Below, piece after piece: positions 23,105-33,212 of a stretch of 33,212 nt of DNA. This stretch comes from a virus. Its lineage: Duplodnaviria; Heunggongvirae; Uroviricota; Caudoviricetes. The stretch lies in the IMG/VR virus record IMGVR_UViG_2617270998_000002; one strand, 5' to 3'. The position numbers and the translations under genes are program-made. Position 1 is the first letter of the stretch, and each line of letters opens with the position of its first letter. The notes beneath the pieces are model-generated. The model did no database searches and was not told where the DNA came from. It worked only from the letters and a program-made list of their open reading frames with translations.

Positions 23105-23515
23105 ATGGATCAGGTAGTCATTTTTAAACAAATATTTGATAAAGTTCGAAACGATTTAAACTATCAATGGTTTTATTCTGAGCTAAAACGTCACAATGTC
23201 TCACATTACATTTACTATTTAGCCACAGAGAATGTTCATATTGTATTAAAAAATGATAATACAGTGTTATTAAAGGGCCTAAAAAACATTGTGTCTGTCA
23301 AATTTTCAAAGGATAGGCATCTTATAGAAACGACCTCTAATAAGCTGAAATCCAGAGAGATCACATTTCAGGAATACAGAAGAAACCTTGCTAAAGCAGG
23401 AGTTTTTCGGTGGGTTACAAATATCCACGAACAAAAAAGATATTACTATACCTTTGATAATTCATTACTCTTTACTGAAAACATACAGAGCACATCACAA
23501 ATGTTTCCACACTAA
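23105..23515 (+). CDS. DUF1398-family protein (YbcV/YdfO-like), unknown function
   Basis: [42 protein letters not shown]...[30 protein letters not shown]; start at 23105 preferred over 23090 because GGAAGG lies 7 nt upstream; opposite strand to the late operon, in the bor-equivalent position. Confidence 0.6.
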
Positions 23516-25670: not shown

Positions 25671-26066
25671 CTAACCTCGCATGTCAAAGCCAGATTTCTG
25701 AAAATCTCTGTAGACTTCCGGATTGTTGAAGGCCGGAAATTTGGCTTTACGAGCTGCGGACTTTATCGCTTCGCAATAGGCTTTATCACCGTTACTGGTA
25801 GATATTTTTAACGCCGTGCCATCCTGAGAGAATTCCATATGCAACCTGCATTTTTTCCCTTTCCAGTTATGCGGCTCATCAAGTTTGGCATTAATTGCAG
25901 CTCTGATTCCCCGCGCTTGCGCCCCCCATTCATCCTGATCATCCCAGCGTCCTGAACTGCAACTACCTGTAGCAGTAGTTTTGTGGCAATCTGAAGGGTG
26001 TAAAGGTGTGCATCCCGCAACAAAACCGACCCAAAAAGTCAACATAACGATTTTCTTTAATCCCAC
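25671..26066 (-). CDS. Lipoprotein with TolA domain III-like C-terminal domain (copy B)
   Basis: Signal peptide plus lipobox (MLTFWVGFVAGC, +2 Thr); C-terminus ...GKKCRLHMEFSQDGTALKISTSNGDKAYCEAIKSAARKAKFPAFNNPEVYRDFQKSGFDM shares the pattern of TolA domain III and of copy A. Confidence 0.6.
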   Translation of the reverse strand: MGLKKIVMLTFWVGFVAGCTPLHPSDCHKTTATGSCSSGRWDDQDEWGAQARGIRAAINAKLDEPHNWKGKKCRLHMEFSQDGTALKISTSNGDKAYCEAIKSAARKAKFPAFNNPEVYRDFQKSGFDMRG

Positions 26067-26216: not shown

Positions 26217-26645
26217 TCAGGGTTTAAAATCCAGCACCCCATTTTGAAATACTTTATATACTTCCGGCGAAGGGGGGGCAGGTATATCAGCATTCTTTAT
26301 CGCATTCATCGCTTCACGACATAAATCGAGGTCTCCACTTTCTCTTTTAACCTCCAGTAGAAGGCCATTCGGGGCCATATGCATTCTCAGTGTACACTCT
26401 TTTCCTGAATACTTACTCGCATCCCCGAACTGTTTTTCGATGGCGCTCTTGATTTGATGGGCATACAGACGGATATCCTCACTAACATCAGAAGTACGTT
26501 CAGATGAACTCACATACTGTGTCTCTATTGCTTTATCGGAGTAATATGATGTACGGTCATGATAATTTGTCGATACAGCATCAGTGCACCCGATAATAAT
26601 CCCACTAATAATCAACGTAAGAATTGATGCGCTACGAAAACCCAT
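26217..26645 (-). CDS. Lipoprotein with TolA domain III-like C-terminal domain (copy A)
   Basis: Signal peptide plus lipobox (ILTLIISGIIIGC, +2 Thr); C-terminus QIKSAIEKQFGDASKYSGKECTLRMHMAPNGLLLEVKRESGDLDLCREAMNAIKNADIPAPPSPEVYKVFQNGVLDFKP closely parallels the E. coli TolA C-terminus as recalled (...GKTCTLRIKLAPDGMLLDIK...IPKPPSQAVYEVFKNAPLDFKP); GAGGAAAA ribosome binding site. Confidence 0.65.
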   Translation of the reverse strand: MGFRSASILTLIISGIIIGCTDAVSTNYHDRTSYYSDKAIETQYVSSSERTSDVSEDIRLYAHQIKSAIEKQFGDASKYSGKECTLRMHMAPNGLLLEVKRESGDLDLCREAMNAIKNADIPAPPSPEVYKVFQNGVLDFKP

Positions 26646-27642: not shown

Positions 27643-27719
27643 TGGCGCGCTGTACTGGATTCGAACCAGTGACCGATTGCTTAGAAGGCAATTGCTCTGT
27701 CCGGCTGAGCTAACAACGC
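27643..27719 (-). tRNA. tRNA-Arg (anticodon UCU)
   Basis: Minus strand GCGTTGTTAGCTCAGCCGGACAGAGCAATTGCCTTCTAAGCAATCGGTCACTGGTTCGAATCCAGTACAGCGCGCCA; anticodon loop CTTCTAA; T-loop GGTTCGAATCC; encoded CCA; resembles argU. Confidence 0.85.
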
Positions 27720-27824: not shown

Positions 27825-27900
27825 TGGTGGCCCTTGCTGGATTTGAACCAGCGACCTGGCGATTATGAGTCGCTCGCTCTCACCACTGAGCTAAAGGACC
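27825..27900 (-). tRNA. tRNA with CAU anticodon, Ile2 (lysidine) type, ileX/ileZ-like
   Basis: Minus strand GGTCCTTTAGCTCAGTGGTGAGAGCGAGCGACTCATAATCGCCAGGTCGCTGGTTCAAATCCAGCAAGGGCCACCA; anticodon loop CTCATAA; very similar to E. coli ileX as recalled; encoded CCA. Confidence 0.8.
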
Positions 27901-31010: not shown

Positions 31011-31041
31011 TGAAAATAAAAACAAAAACCCGCCGAAGCGG
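31011..31041 (-). terminator. Intrinsic terminator 3' of hok
   Basis: Minus strand CCCGC-ttcg-GCGGG followed by TTTTTGTTTTTATTTT; a 9-bp perfect stem GGCGAGGGA-gaaa-TCCCTCGCC lies immediately after the hok stop (31083-31104). Confidence 0.6.
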
Positions 31042-31112
31042 GTTAAGTGCGGGTGCGTTGAGGATGCCTGCCACATCAGAGGTGGCGAGGGATTTCTCCC
31101 TCGCCGGGTCTC

Positions 31113-31268
31113 TTACTCCTCAGGTTCGTAAGCTGTGAAGACAGCGACCTCCGTCTGGCCGGTTCGGATTCGTACCTCGCAGAGGTCTTTCCTCGTTACC
31201 AGTGCCGTCACTATGACGGTTAAACAGATGACGATCAGGGCGATTAACATCGCCTTTTGCTGCTTCAT
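31113..31268 (-). CDS. hokD: Hok/Gef-family type I toxin (HokD/RelF-like)
   Basis: MKQQKAMLIALIVICLTVIVTALVTRKDLCEVRIRTGQTEVAVFTAYEPEE (51 aa), which I recognise as HokD; AAGGAG ribosome binding site; the track ORF extends 19 codons upstream in frame (31325). Confidence 0.8.
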   Translation of the reverse strand: MKQQKAMLIALIVICLTVIVTALVTRKDLCEVRIRTGQTEVAVFTAYEPEE

Positions 31269-31450
31269 AGCCTGCTTCTCCTTGCCTTTCGGCACGTAAG
31301 AGGCTAACCTACATGTGTCTAGCATGAAATTGGCCTCAGATTAATGTTAAGCGTCTTGCAGGACGCGTAATGTTAACTGGGGCTTTTCTCTATCTGCCGT
31401 TGGTGTTCATGCCCGAGGCAGATAGCCTCAAGCACCCGCAGCAATTTTAC

Positions 31451-31558
31451 TTAACTCCCTCTACCTCGCCAATCAGAAAATCGCTCCATGAAAGCAACAA
31501 CAAGACAATAAATTACCAGCACAGCCACAATAGCCAACACACACGTCAGAGCCAACAC
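31451..31558 (-). CDS. Candidate small hydrophobic peptide (35 aa), not in ORF track
   Basis: GTG start 5 nt after AGGAGG; own translation (M)LALTCVLAIVAVLVIYCLVVAFMERFSDWRGRGS: one TM helix plus short basic tail, like small membrane toxins; lies between the SIR2-like gene and hok. Confidence 0.3.
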   Translation of the reverse strand: MLALTCVLAIVAVLVIYCLVVAFMERFSDWRGRGS

Positions 31559-31728
31559 GATAACCTCCTGTATTGGACGTATACCAATACTGATAAATAT
31601 GAGACTGCCTCTTCAATGATTCAATACAACTATTGGGTGTTCATCTAAAGAATGAAATGAAGGTAAAGTGTATATTTCAGCTCAGCGAAGTTAGAACCGT
31701 ATACTCTCGATACTAACTTCGCATTGTG

Positions 31729-32760
31729 CTACCAATTGATGAAGTCAGTGATGTTATCCAACCTGGTTACAGTAACTTCCCGTCCTAACAAATATTGCCA
31801 GTATGCCTCACGGTCATTTTGTTCACCTGCACCGCTCCACTCAATTACTCTTAAATGCTTAGAGGTTAGGTAAGGCCGAATAAGCAGGTTAAGGTGTTCA
31901 TCGAGGCCAGAATAACCAAACAGTATTATTTCTTCTGATTCAAATAATGCAAACTGCAAATAATCCCAGTACGTAGAAAGAACATTAGATGCTGCTATAA
32001 CTGACGGTTTCCTTTTTATATGCGTTAACACTATATGTTCGCTAGGCTCATCCCTGTCAACCGTAAGTTGAGAACGTGAAAGTTTTAAGACGGTCTCACC
32101 CTGATTAACAAATAGTGGTGAGCCATGCAAATGCAAATAATAACCAAACCTACGATTATATTTCCGTTCGAGCGCTTCGGCGGAAAATCCGTGGCCTAAC
32201 ATCCCATCAACCAGATACCCATCATACCCGCTGAATATATCATTATCTATGAATGAGTTGTATAATAATTTGTCATAGTTTAATGTCGCAATATGAGTGC
32301 GTGTATTTTTTACAAATTCCACTAGCGCATTTTCGAATCTTTGCGGCAACCCTTCACCGTAATTATGCAAACTAGTTGCAACTTTGTGGATATAAGTGGC
32401 GGTGATTTCGGGGAAGTTTAGTCCATCGTCAGTAAGCCAATGCTCGTTTCCTTCTCCAATTTGCGCAAGAGCCTTACAATATGTGATAGCTTGGTGAAGG
32501 GTATCCAACTCATGTTCCCCTGCCGGTGGACCTTGCCGCTGAAGACAACGTTCGATAAGTTGCTTATGGACATCGTTTAAGAAATTGGATCGATGCCAAA
32601 TTTCTGCCAACGCCCTGTCTAAGGAAAAATGAGCAGGATCTAAAGCCATACCAAGACCGTTGCCGAATATTATTAATTTTCGTGCCATATAGGAGGACTC
32701 ATGTTGGAATAATCTTGAGTAGCGTAACGCGATACGCCGCAGTTTGGAAGTAATATACAT
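31729..32760 (-). CDS. SIR2-like (sirtuin-fold, DHS-like NAD-binding) protein; candidate defence NADase
   Basis: Ordered motifs by eye: N-terminal Gly-rich KLIIFGNGLGMAL, TLNYDKLL (sirtuin TQNID/TTNYD-like), YYLHLHGSP (catalytic His context), C-terminal ILFGYSGLDEHL; AT-rich; alternative start at ATG 32688 (MARKLIIFG...). Confidence 0.6.
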   Translation of the reverse strand: MYITSKLRRIALRYSRLFQHESSYMARKLIIFGNGLGMALDPAHFSLDRALAEIWHRSNFLNDVHKQLIERCLQRQGPPAGEHELDTLHQAITYCKALAQIGEGNEHWLTDDGLNFPEITATYIHKVATSLHNYGEGLPQRFENALVEFVKNTRTHIATLNYDKLLYNSFIDNDIFSGYDGYLVDGMLGHGFSAEALERKYNRRFGYYLHLHGSPLFVNQGETVLKLSRSQLTVDRDEPSEHIVLTHIKRKPSVIAASNVLSTYWDYLQFALFESEEIILFGYSGLDEHLNLLIRPYLTSKHLRVIEWSGAGEQNDREAYWQYLLGREVTVTRLDNITDFINW

Positions 32761-32933
32761 TCCGTTTGATTACACTCGATATTACAGACTTGCATGCAAA
32801 GAAATCCAAGCTGTTAGGTAAATAGAGACCGCAGAGGAAAGTGATATAGTCTATAAAAACCAACGAATAGCGGCATGTCTTCTGCGACCTCCATTTACCC
32901 AAATAGCGCTTATCTAGTAAAATTCAATGATGT

Positions 32934-33212
32934 TGGATTTGCCCCTATATTTCCAGACACCTGTTATCACTTAACCCATTACTGGCTTGCTGCCGTAGAT
33001 ATTCCCGTGGCGAGCGATAACCCAGTGCACTATGCGGATGCCATTCGTTATAATGCTCGAACGCCTCTGCAAGGTTCTTTGCTGCCGTTAACCCGTCTGG
33101 TTTGGGCATGACACTGATGTAGTCACGCTTTATCGTTTTCACGAAGCTCTCTGCTATGCCGTTACTCTCCGGACTCCGCACCGCCGTGCTCTTCGGTTCA
33201 AGCCCCAACATC
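32934..33212 (-). mobile_element. IS2 (IS3 family), right-end 279 bp; element continues beyond the window
   Basis: Plus strand from 32934 (TGGATTTGCCCCTATATTTCCAGACACCTGTTATCACTTAACCC...) is the reverse complement of the IS2 right terminus as I recall it; the InsD C-terminus is encoded on the minus strand. Confidence 0.85.
32945..33212 (-). CDS. insD: IS2 transposase OrfB (InsD), C-terminal part (truncated by window end)
   Basis: ORF ...[87 protein letters not shown], the IS3-family integrase-core C-terminus. Confidence 0.85.

What the first reader, a model, noticed from the sequence alone, without database searches (positions are those of the whole stretch)
31729..32760. Stand-alone SIR2-like gene in an AT-rich island between hok and an IS2 insertion
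The 343-aa ORF carries, in the expected order, a Gly-rich N-terminal Rossmann motif (KLIIFGNGLG), TLNYD (the sirtuin TQNID/TTNYD motif), HLHG (catalytic His context) and a C-terminal FGYSGLD strand, the signature of defence-type SIR2 domains (Thoeris ThsA, DSR, SIR2-HerA, SPARSA effectors). In the Qin-like layout (ydfU, rem, hokD, relE, relB) it occupies the place where relBE would be, and no RelE/RelB-sized ORF is present. About 170 bp upstream the IS2 right end begins. So this is either a single-gene SIR2 NADase abortive-infection module or the surviving half of a two-gene system whose partner was displaced by IS2. The neighbouring 35-aa membrane peptide and Hok toxin suggest a small anti-phage/addiction island inside the prophage.
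Basis: partly seen in the sequence, partly recalled or inferred. Interest (0 to 1): 0.75.

Follow-up and report, generated by a model that had tools for sequence, protein, structure and literature searches.

The report
Solo SIR2 gene in prophage cargo slot
A lambdoid E. coli prophage carries, in a swappable one-gene cargo slot, a partner-less SIR2-type NAD-binding enzyme whose closest solved relatives are anti-phage NAD-destroying enzymes, so it is a plausible but untested single-gene phage-defence gene.

Summary
ORF 31729-32760(-) is a genuine SIR2-fold gene. Its likely start is the second ATG at 32688, giving 319 aa.

- **Catalytic residues:** GNG, N137/D139 and H188 are invariant across a family of about 300 clusters of 320-350 aa single-domain proteins.
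- **Stand-alone status:** IS2-free alleles show the order DUF977, 416-bp spacer, SIR2, hok/sok. IS2 sits in non-coding DNA 245 bp upstream and displaced nothing. Across 100 loci from many genera, no neighbouring gene family recurs.
- **Cargo slot:** The gene lies in a 1.36-kb AT-rich cassette (41% GC against 50%) at a variable site. Sister prophages carry RelBE, a RelA/SpoT protein (PADLOC PDC-S33), DUF5677, a hydrolase or Doc there instead.
- **Selection and frequency:** dN/dS is 0.14, and 46 of 5,426 E. coli genomes carry the gene.

The defence and NADase functions are inferred, not shown. I found no dedicated model and no paper on the family. It is best described as a new variant of a known kind, of moderate interest.

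The parts
31729..32688 (-). SIR2-like gene, likely true CDS (319 aa, start MARKLIIFGNGLG; stop TAG at 31729-31731)
32689..32760 (-). 24-codon in-frame extension of the mechanical ORF; probably untranslated 5' leader
   Evidence: Differs at 15/72 nt and 9/24 aa between alleles, against about 90% identity in the CDS. Homologues in other genera start at the MxRK position.
32656..32664 (-). codons G9-N10-G11 (GNGxG NAD-binding loop after strand beta-1)
   Evidence: Invariant in 58 homologues; strand E4-8 followed by helix 11-16 in the model.
32272..32280 (-). codons N137-Y138-D139 (TLNYD, the sirtuin catalytic Asn/Asp motif)
   Evidence: Invariant; aligns with TTNYD of E. coli Sir2-HerA SIR2 8j4u.
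32122..32130 (-). codons L187-H188-G189 (HLHG, catalytic His)
   Evidence: Invariant; aligns with KLHGS of 8j4u and 8w9l.
31900..31917 (-). codons G258-D263 (GYSGLD strand-loop; D263 invariant)
   Evidence: aligns with GFGFGD of 8j4u.
32689..32933 (-). the cargo's own 5' non-coding region still attached to the gene (245 of 318 bp); presumed to hold the promoter
   Evidence: Conserved between the two E. coli alleles but with small indels, so non-coding. The simple sigma-70 scan found no consensus promoter here, so the promoter is an inference.
31649..32933 (.). AT-rich single-gene cargo cassette (complete length about 1.36 kb in IS-free alleles; the last ~73 bp lie beyond the IS2, outside the window)
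   Evidence: Homology with prophages carrying other cargos stops at about 31640-31650 on the hok side. It resumes at L001 ~11008 on the DUF977 side. GC 0.408 against 0.503.
32934..33212 (-). right end of an IS2 (IS3-family) copy, transposase C-terminus reading toward the SIR2 gene; runs off the window
   Evidence: Megablast matches of IS-free alleles stop at 32933. 100% identity to 'IS3 family transposase' copies. Terminal sequence ...GGGGCAAATCCA.
31107..31460 (-). context, not part of the cargo: complete hok/mok/sok type I toxin-antitoxin unit (hokD CDS 31113-31268)
   Evidence: RefSeq hokD. Rfam sok RF01794, 115 bits, at 31263-31437. Matches hokW/mokW/sokW of phage 933W.
31451..31558 (-). 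context, not part of the cargo: 35-aa hydrophobic ORF with an AGGAGG Shine-Dalgarno, in the conserved backbone

Best explanation
A lambdoid (Qin-like) prophage carries a self-contained, single-gene cargo cassette between its replication module (O-like gene, then DUF977/'Ren-like') and its hok/sok-rem-ydfU-rusA-Q region. The cassette encodes a 319-aa protein that is a single bilobed SIR2 domain with an intact NAD+ site.

The most likely function is superinfection defence. I propose that the protein is made in the lysogen from its own upstream region and is held inactive, probably as a homo-oligomer like its closest structural relatives. When another phage infects, a phage-derived cue would switch it on. 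It would then hydrolyse NAD+ through N137/D139/H188, so the infected cell stops supporting phage growth (abortive infection).

Shown here:
- the SIR2 fold, and that its nearest structures are defence NADases
- invariant catalytic residues across the family
- purifying selection on the gene
- absence of any conserved partner gene
- location in a swappable prophage cargo slot that elsewhere holds toxin-antitoxin and defence-candidate genes
- IS2 lies in non-coding DNA and removed nothing

Inferred:
- NADase rather than deacylase chemistry
- expression in the lysogen
- oligomeric auto-inhibition
- the nature of the trigger
- any phage-resistance phenotype

The IS2 copy, 245 bp upstream and reading toward the gene, probably cuts it off from read-through of the early operon and may add outward transcription. 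That too is inference.
For: Fold and active site:
- Pfam SIR2_2 above the gathering score for this protein and for all 58 relatives tested.
- AF2 model with pLDDT 94.7 and pTM 0.91.
- Foldseek top hits are SIR2 of Sir2-HerA/Nezha, E 4e-11, TM about 0.6.
- A profile search aligns TLNYD, HLHGS and GYSGxDxHLN with the equivalent motifs of 8j4u. These residues are invariant in the family.
- The protein has only two Cys and no CxxC pairs, so it lacks the Zn ribbon of deacetylase sirtuins (read directly from the sequence).

Stand-alone status:
- IS-free alleles.
- Clustering of neighbours in 102 loci found no shared family outside closely related prophages.
- Among 121 immediate neighbours, no Pfam or PADLOC family has more than 5 members.
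- The large upstream neighbours are unrelated to each other.

Mobile and defence context:
- 20 IMG/VR viral contigs carry homologues.
- In sister prophages the same slot holds RelBE, a RelA/SpoT protein matching PADLOC PDC-S33 at 5e-119, Doc, DUF5677 or a hydrolase.
- Neighbours of distant homologues include AriA, PtuA/GajA-like ATPases, HsdR, a reverse transcriptase, a Schlafen protein, integrases and MvaT.

Gene integrity and frequency:
- dN/dS 0.14.
- Patchy distribution, 46 of 5,426 genomes.

Precedent:
- A DUF4917/SIR2_2-type protein is the effector of the validated system PD-T7-2 (PMC9519451).
Against: - There are no experimental data for this family. None was found in the searchable literature.
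- Matches to defence HMMs are weak (E 1e-5 to 1e-7 for this protein). NCBIfam and PHROGs give nothing.
- There is no sensor domain and no partner. The closest relative, PsSIR2, is auto-inhibited on its own and needs HerA for NADase activity (PMC11472057), so the activation route is unknown.
- One DUF4917-labelled protein, C. jejuni SliP, is reported as a secreted lysine deacetylase (PMC10421069).
- Many homologues sit next to housekeeping genes such as MetG, MetH, Acs and GatB. Defence-island enrichment was not tested statistically.
- No sigma-70 consensus promoter was found upstream.
Confidence: 0.5

Rival explanations
1. It is a protein-modifying sirtuin (a lysine deacylase or mono-ADP-ribosyltransferase) that the prophage uses to alter host or phage proteins. 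On this reading it is a lysogenic-conversion or regulatory factor like C. jejuni SliP or SirTM, not an NAD+-depleting suicide enzyme.
Confidence: 0.2
2. It is an effector that depends on an unlinked partner encoded elsewhere in the genome. The partner could be a HerA-like ATPase or a signal-producing defence system whose nucleotide product activates it. On this reading it is not autonomous.
For: All characterised close relatives need a partner or a signal: HerA for Sir2-HerA, PD-T7-2B for PD-T7-2A, nucleotide signals for KomC and ThsA (known biology; they are structural neighbours). The protein has no sensor domain.
Against: The gene travels alone in a 1.36-kb cassette and in very different genomic contexts across Gamma-, Beta- and Alphaproteobacteria, with no recurrent neighbour. 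Dependence on an unlinked partner would make such horizontal spread unproductive.
Confidence: 0.12
3. It serves the phage's own lytic cycle or counter-defence, for example by remodelling NAD metabolism or destroying NAD-derived immune signals, and is expressed from the early operon rather than in the lysogen.
For: It lies in the early-operon direction between the replication genes and Q, where read-through from pR would express it on induction. No autonomous consensus promoter was detected.
Against: A 318-bp AT-rich private upstream region travels with the gene, which is typical of autonomously expressed morons. The same slot holds toxin-antitoxin and defence-candidate genes. Most homologues are chromosomal and not in prophages. 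The phage GenBank collection has no homologue, and BFVD has no close structural match.
Confidence: 0.1
4. It is an inert hitch-hiker: an orphaned SIR2 subunit that lost its partner long ago and has no current function.
For: No partner and no sensor domain; the closest relative is inactive alone.
Against: dN/dS is 0.14 between E. coli alleles. The catalytic residues are invariant across about 300 clusters at 50% identity, and the length is uniform at 320-350 aa. The ORF is intact in all 46 E. coli genomes, where it is annotated as a CDS and not a pseudogene.
Confidence: 0.05

Closest known systems
SIR2 subunit of the Sir2-HerA (Nezha) anti-phage system (PDB 8w9l, 8j4u, 8sub, 8yhx)
   Different: Only about 15% identity. 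The window protein is shorter (319 aa against 360-415), lacking N- and C-terminal extensions. No HerA gene is adjacent in E. coli or among 121 neighbours of relatives. In Sir2-HerA the SIR2 alone is auto-inhibited and HerA activates it (PMC11472057).
PD-T7-2 (Vassallo et al. 2022): PD-T7-2A (DUF4917/SIR2_2) with PD-T7-2B (HerA-like ATPase)
   Same: An E. coli accessory-genome defence system whose effector belongs to the same DUF4917/SIR2_2 neighbourhood of the SIR2 superfamily.
   Different: It is a two-gene system.
PADLOC candidate PDC-S21 (single-gene, ~336-aa profile)
   Same: Similar length and single-gene status. The N-terminal two-thirds align (residues 4-207 to profile 26-211). 51 of 58 relatives match.
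   Different: The matches are weak (1.4e-5 to 3.4e-5 for this protein, best 9.5e-13 in the family), so this is at most a sister family. PDC-S21 is a computational candidate, and I found no paper that mentions it.
Thoeris ThsA, Kongming KomC, DSR1/DSR2, Avs5 (SIR2-STAND), SPARSA SIR2-APAZ
   Different: Each of those has a fused sensor domain (SLOG, STAND, APAZ, a large C-terminal domain) or obligatory partner genes. This protein is a bare SIR2 domain with no partner.
C. jejuni SliP (DUF4917 protein, secreted sirtuin-like deacetylase; PMC10421069)
   Same: A small stand-alone SIR2-like protein with a patchy strain distribution. About half of the relatives of the window protein touch the DUF4917 profile.
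   Different: The window protein itself does not match DUF4917. SliP's reported role is host histone deacetylation. I could not make a direct sequence comparison.
Other single-gene cargos of the same prophage slot (RelBE in K-12 Qin; RelA/SpoT-domain protein = PADLOC PDC-S33)
   Same: Identical insertion site between DUF977 and hok/sok; about 1-kb single-gene or TA cassettes.
   Different: Unrelated proteins and chemistry.

Membership tests
SIR2 superfamily / Pfam SIR2_2 (PF13289) | Profile match above the curated gathering score | tested here: met
   26.5-26.7 bits against a cutoff of 24.5, E 7e-6. All 58 relatives match, best 6.4e-13.
SIR2 superfamily / Pfam SIR2_2 (PF13289) | Rossmann-type large domain plus inserted small domain, as in solved SIR2 structures | tested here: met
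SIR2 superfamily / Pfam SIR2_2 (PF13289) | Catalytic Asn/Asp (TxNxD) and His (HG) plus the Gly-rich NAD loop | tested here: met
   G9-N10-G11, N137, D139 and H188 are invariant in 58 sequences and align with 8j4u and 8w9l.
SIR2 superfamily / Pfam SIR2_2 (PF13289) | NAD+-consuming activity | not testable with these tools
   Needs an enzyme assay.
Sir2-HerA (Nezha) two-gene system | Adjacent HerA-type ATPase/helicase gene | tested here: not met
   Nothing lies between DUF977 and SIR2, or between SIR2 and hok, in IS-free alleles. No HerA-like family appears among 121 neighbours, where the top families are generic AAA with 5 members or fewer.
Sir2-HerA (Nezha) two-gene system | SIR2 subunit of the Sir2-HerA structural type | tested here: met
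   Best structural and only sequence-profile PDB match, at about 15% identity.
Sir2-HerA (Nezha) two-gene system | Ring-shaped SIR2 dodecamer or tetradecamer | not testable with these tools
   Only monomer prediction was available.
Thoeris ThsA | SIR2 fused to a SLOG (or Macro/TM) signal-binding domain, with a TIR-domain ThsB neighbour | tested here: not met
   A single domain of 319 aa with only a SIR2_2 hit. No neighbouring gene in E. coli alleles. TIR is not among the recurrent neighbour families.
DSR1 / DSR2 | Large protein (~1,000 aa) with an N-terminal SIR2 and a C-terminal sensor region | tested here: not met
   319 aa; the family is uniformly 310-360 aa.
Pfam DUF4917 (PF16263; includes C. 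jejuni SliP by that paper's annotation) | Profile match | tested here: inconclusive
   The window protein has no hit at E<=1. 26 of 58 relatives match weakly, best 2.4e-7.
PADLOC PDC-S21 candidate | Strong full-length match to PDLC04960/04961 | tested here: inconclusive
   E 1.4e-5 to 6.9e-5 covering about 200 of 336 profile positions. The family best is 9.5e-13.
Classical sirtuin deacylases (CobB, Sir2Af, SIRT1-7) | Zn-binding Cys4 module in the small domain | tested here: not met
   Only two Cys (C48, C71) and no CxxC pairs (sequence). The small domain is all-helical.
Prophage moron / cargo cassette | Discrete insert at a fixed backbone site, replaced by unrelated genes in sister prophages, with deviant base composition | tested here: met
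   Boundaries at about 31649 and L001 ~11008. Alternative cargos. GC 0.408 against 0.503.

The most novel reading that the evidence does not exclude
This is the founding E. coli example of a widespread, so far uncharacterised single-gene defence family. The family is a Sir2-HerA-type SIR2 that has dispensed with HerA and with any fused sensor. The bare 319-aa SIR2 domain would then itself sense infection, for instance by direct binding of a phage protein or nucleic acid to its helical small domain or by trigger-induced re-oligomerisation, and deplete NAD+. That would make it the minimal known SIR2 immune effector.
Probability: 0.35. Interest if true: 0.65.

Novelty: new variant of a known kind. 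Interest (0 to 1): 0.45.

Why it matters
SIR2 NADases are among the commonest effectors of bacterial immunity. Every characterised one is switched on by a fused sensor domain or by partner proteins. A partner-less, sensor-less SIR2 that still defends would raise a concrete mechanistic question: how does a bare catalytic domain stay off and then recognise infection? It would also add a compact single-gene system to the toolbox. The locus further marks the DUF977-to-hok junction of Qin/mEp460-type lambdoid phages as a one-gene cargo hotspot that could be mined for other defence genes, such as the DUF5677 protein and the α/β hydrolase. If the protein turns out to be a deacylase instead, it would be a prophage-borne regulator of host protein acylation. 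That would be less novel, but still uncharacterised.

Tried and rejected
- **IS2 displaced a partner:** rejected. IS-free alleles have an uninterrupted 416-bp spacer, and IS2 lies inside the cargo's own 5' non-coding DNA.
- **343-aa protein:** rejected in favour of 319 aa.
- **Conserved partner among distant homologues:** I clustered all ORFs within 4.5 kb in 102 loci. I scanned 121 pooled immediate neighbours against Pfam and PADLOC. I scanned 10 large co-oriented upstream genes individually. Nothing recurred.
- **Small ORF and hok as part of a SIR2 island:** rejected. They are backbone.
- **A small upstream antitoxin-like ORF:** the mechanical ORFs at 32673-32795 and 32699-32902 fall in a region that has indels between alleles, so they are not coding.
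- **Direct sequence match to solved structures:** the single-sequence search found nothing relevant. Only the profile reached Sir2-HerA.
- **Databases without a match:** the phage GenBank collection, NCBIfam and PHROGs, and BFVD apart from weak classical sirtuins.
- **Rfam:** only sok, plus a sub-threshold isrK-like hit.
- **Promoter scan:** no consensus promoter upstream of the gene.
- **Literature:** nothing on PDC-S21. DUF4917 led only to SliP. Searches for stand-alone SIR2 defence found nothing relevant.
- **Could not be done:** Brenes & Laub 2025 (E. coli prophage defence screen) was not readable.

Full report
**1. Observation**

The 343-aa ORF at 31729..32760 on the minus strand is real. 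It contains the quoted motifs in the stated order. The surrounding 1.3 kb is AT-rich, at 0.39-0.42 GC in sliding windows and 0.408 for 31650-32933. The adjacent prophage DNA is 0.503 and the whole window 0.517.

The sequence from 32934 to the window end is the right end of an IS3-family element. Its transposase C-terminus reads toward the SIR2 gene. Matches of IS-free alleles stop exactly at 32933, and the 279 bp are 100% identical to annotated 'IS3 family transposase' copies. Naming it IS2 specifically rests on my recognition of the terminal sequence and the InsD C-terminus.

The start codon needs correcting. RefSeq annotates a 319-aa product starting MARKLIIF, and homologues in other genera are 319-325 aa. 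The 24 extra codons differ at 15 of 72 nt and 9 of 24 aa between two E. coli alleles whose coding regions are about 90% identical. The likely CDS is therefore 31729..32688, and IS2 lies 245 bp upstream of it.

**2. What the protein is**

Pfam SIR2_2 is matched just above threshold (26.5 bits against 24.5). NCBIfam and PHROGs give nothing. PADLOC gives only weak hits to Aga_SIR2, generic SIR2 models and the single-gene candidate PDC-S21.

Homologues are plentiful. There are 642 clusters at 90% identity and 305 representatives at 50% identity. Almost all are single-domain proteins of 310-360 aa, mainly from Gamma-, Beta- and Alphaproteobacteria.

In a 58-sequence alignment spanning 33-82% identity, the invariant residues are G9-N10-G11, E58, N137-Y138-D139, L187-H188-G189, K227, I231, L237, Y240 and D263. 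These are the Gly-rich NAD loop, the sirtuin Asn/Asp motif and the catalytic His. All 58 sequences match SIR2_2, 26 also touch DUF4917, and about 50 touch PDC-S21 and Aga_SIR2. Every one of these matches is weak, with a best E of about 1e-12. The family is therefore a distinct SIR2 clade without a dedicated model in these libraries.

- Foldseek E 4e-11 with TM about 0.6

KomC of Kongming (14.8) and ThsA of Thoeris (14.7) come next. Classical sirtuins (13.4 or less), Avs5, SirTM and FAM118B follow.

A sequence profile of the family reaches only the Sir2-HerA SIR2s in the PDB (E 1.5e-6) and aligns the catalytic motifs. The protein has just two cysteines and no CxxC pairs, so it lacks the zinc ribbon of deacetylase sirtuins.

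**3. Stand-alone or half of a pair?**

IS2-free alleles exist at 100% identity (strain S30) and at about 89% identity (strain 602687). The gene order is Cro/CI, YdaT, a hypothetical gene, DUF977, a 416-440 bp spacer, SIR2, hokD, rem, a hypothetical gene, ydfU (DUF968), RusA/Q. Nothing is annotated between DUF977 and the SIR2 gene, and the mechanical ORFs there lie in DNA that has indels between the alleles. IS2 therefore landed in non-coding DNA and displaced no gene.

To look for a partner in distant relatives I fetched 80 loci from species-representative genomes and 20 from IMG/VR and ran three tests:
- I clustered every ORF within 4.5 kb. No family is shared beyond two sets of near-identical prophages.
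- I scanned 121 pooled immediate neighbours. No Pfam or PADLOC family has more than five members, and the largest is generic AAA_16.
- I scanned ten large co-oriented upstream genes. They are a reverse transcriptase, HsdR, MetG, a Schlafen/AlbA_2 protein, an SNF2 helicase, acetyl-CoA synthetase, an ABC-F ATPase, MetH, an SMC-like ATPase and one unknown.

The gene is stand-alone.

**4. Where it sits**

The window is a lambdoid prophage. It has terminase, portal, capsid and tail genes, a lysis cassette, tRNAs, Q, RusA, ydfU, rem and hok/sok.

Homology with other prophages stops at about 31640-31650 on the hok side. It resumes about 98 bp below the DUF977 stop codon. This defines a cassette of about 1.36 kb that holds the SIR2 CDS, 318 bp of private upstream DNA and about 80 bp downstream. 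IS2 lies inside the upstream part, about 73 bp from the cassette edge.

In sister prophages the same slot carries other genes:
- a RelA/SpoT-domain protein that matches PADLOC candidate PDC-S33 at 5e-119
- a DUF5677 protein
- an α/β hydrolase
- QueH, with or without a methyltransferase
- a Doc toxin
- DUF7167 clusters

A backbone 98.9% identical to this window carries relE-relB-ydfV-flxA there. Sequenced phages mEp460 and HannyBb show the same architecture, with DUF977 annotated as 'Ren-like exclusion protein' or LygF.

The hok/mok/sok unit (Rfam sok, 115 bits; equivalent to hokW/mokW/sokW of 933W) and the 35-aa hydrophobic ORF belong to the conserved backbone, not to the cassette.

**5. Is it functional?**

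The two E. coli alleles differ at 34 residues, none of them catalytic, and dN/dS is 0.14. The gene occurs in 46 of 5,426 complete E. coli genomes, always as a single chromosomal copy and always annotated as an intact CDS. None of these genomes has the IS2 insertion. Plasmids hold only one distant homologue, in Marinobacter. The phage GenBank set holds none, but 20 IMG/VR contigs do.

**6. Mechanism**

The best-supported reading is a single-gene superinfection-defence module: an NAD+-hydrolysing SIR2 that is triggered by infection and causes abortive infection. The support comes from four things: structural kinship with defence NADases, intact catalytic residues, a mobile and patchy distribution, and a cargo slot shared with toxin-antitoxin and defence-candidate genes.

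There is precedent. A DUF4917/SIR2_2-type protein is the effector of the validated E. coli system PD-T7-2, although that system includes a HerA-like partner.

The main weakness is activation. PsSIR2, the closest structure, is an auto-inhibited dodecamer that needs HerA. This protein has no partner and no sensor domain.

The rivals, with my confidence in each, are:
- a SliP-like protein deacylase or ADP-ribosyltransferase (0.2)
- dependence on an unlinked partner or signal (0.12)
- a role in the phage's own lytic cycle or counter-defence (0.1)
- an inert orphan (0.05, contradicted by purifying selection)

None of the enzymatic or phenotypic steps can be tested with these tools.

**7. Novelty and verdict**

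RefSeq already labels the gene 'SIR2 family protein', so the fold assignment is not new. I could not find any characterisation of this stand-alone family in the searchable literature.

Relative to known SIR2 defence systems, the difference is architectural. This is a bare SIR2 domain of the Sir2-HerA structural type, without HerA. I rate it a new variant of a known kind, of moderate interest (0.45). My confidence that it is a defence NADase is 0.5.

Noticed in passing
window 31451-31558 (-): A 35-aa strongly hydrophobic ORF (MLALTCVLAIVAVLVIYCLVVAFMERFSDWRGRGS) with a GTG start 5 nt after an AGGAGG Shine-Dalgarno. It is retained as a 29-35 aa peptide with conservative substitutions in diverged alleles and in phages mEp460, Evi, Tritos and HannyBb. 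RefSeq does not annotate it on this strand. It lies in the conserved hok-side backbone immediately upstream of the hok mRNA. It may be a small membrane protein or toxin gene.
   Followed up: partly
window 31107-31460 (-): A complete hok/mok/sok type I toxin-antitoxin unit: hokD CDS at 31113-31268, an in-frame upstream extension to 31325, Rfam sok at 115 bits over 31263-31437, and a promoter-like site at 31472-31444. It is homologous to hokW/mokW/sokW of Stx phage 933W. In the relBE-carrying sister prophage, hokD is truncated.
   Followed up: yes
window 31640-32933 and L001 9650-11007; L107, L108, L109, L112: The junction between DUF977 ('Ren-like') and hok in Qin/mEp460-type lambdoid prophages is a cargo hotspot, mostly one gene at a time. 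The cargos seen are SIR2, a RelA/SpoT protein (PADLOC PDC-S33), DUF5677, an α/β hydrolase, QueH with or without a methyltransferase, Doc, DUF7167 clusters, and relBE-ydfV-flxA. The DUF5677 and hydrolase cargos have no PADLOC match and may be untested defence candidates.
   Followed up: partly
window 32934-33212: This IS2 insertion, 245 bp upstream of the SIR2 start with the transposase reading toward the gene, is absent from all 46 SIR2-carrying complete E. coli genomes. Some 89%-allele strains instead have an IS481-family insertion in the hok-SIR2 interval (H20-H30). Any effect on SIR2 expression is unknown.
   Followed up: partly
window 27643-27719 and 27825-27900 (-): Two prophage tRNA genes, tRNA-Arg(tct) and a tRNA with a CAT anticodon. 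ARAGORN calls the second Met; RefSeq annotates it as tRNA-Ile in the sister prophage. They lie next to the Q antiterminator gene, between it and the lysis cassette.
   Followed up: no
window 31023-31104 (-): A sub-threshold Rfam hit to the isrK Hfq-binding sRNA (25.7 bits against a gathering score of 50). It overlaps the only intrinsic-terminator-like hairpin in the region (31044-31027), between hok and rem.
   Followed up: no
L056 3902-5872; L044 2625-5723; two loci in alignment A3: Among distant homologues, one lies directly downstream of acetyl-CoA synthetase (the classic sirtuin substrate). One lies downstream of a type I HsdR gene, as C. jejuni SliP does. Two have nicotinate phosphoribosyltransferase (NAD salvage) as an immediate neighbour. 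These are too few to interpret.
   Followed up: no
window 23105-23515 (+), 25671-26066 (-), 26217-26645 (-): Further accessory genes in the late region, identified by homology to the annotated sister prophage L112. They are a DUF1398 gene on the opposite strand and two TolA C-terminal-domain genes between the lysis cassette and the tRNAs.
   Followed up: no
L003 9278-9829 (Klebsiella pneumoniae): In Klebsiella the 73%-identical homologue is followed, 318 bp downstream, by a 183-aa P-loop (AAA_28-like) gene in a two-gene insert between housekeeping genes. This pairing did not recur elsewhere.
   Followed up: partly
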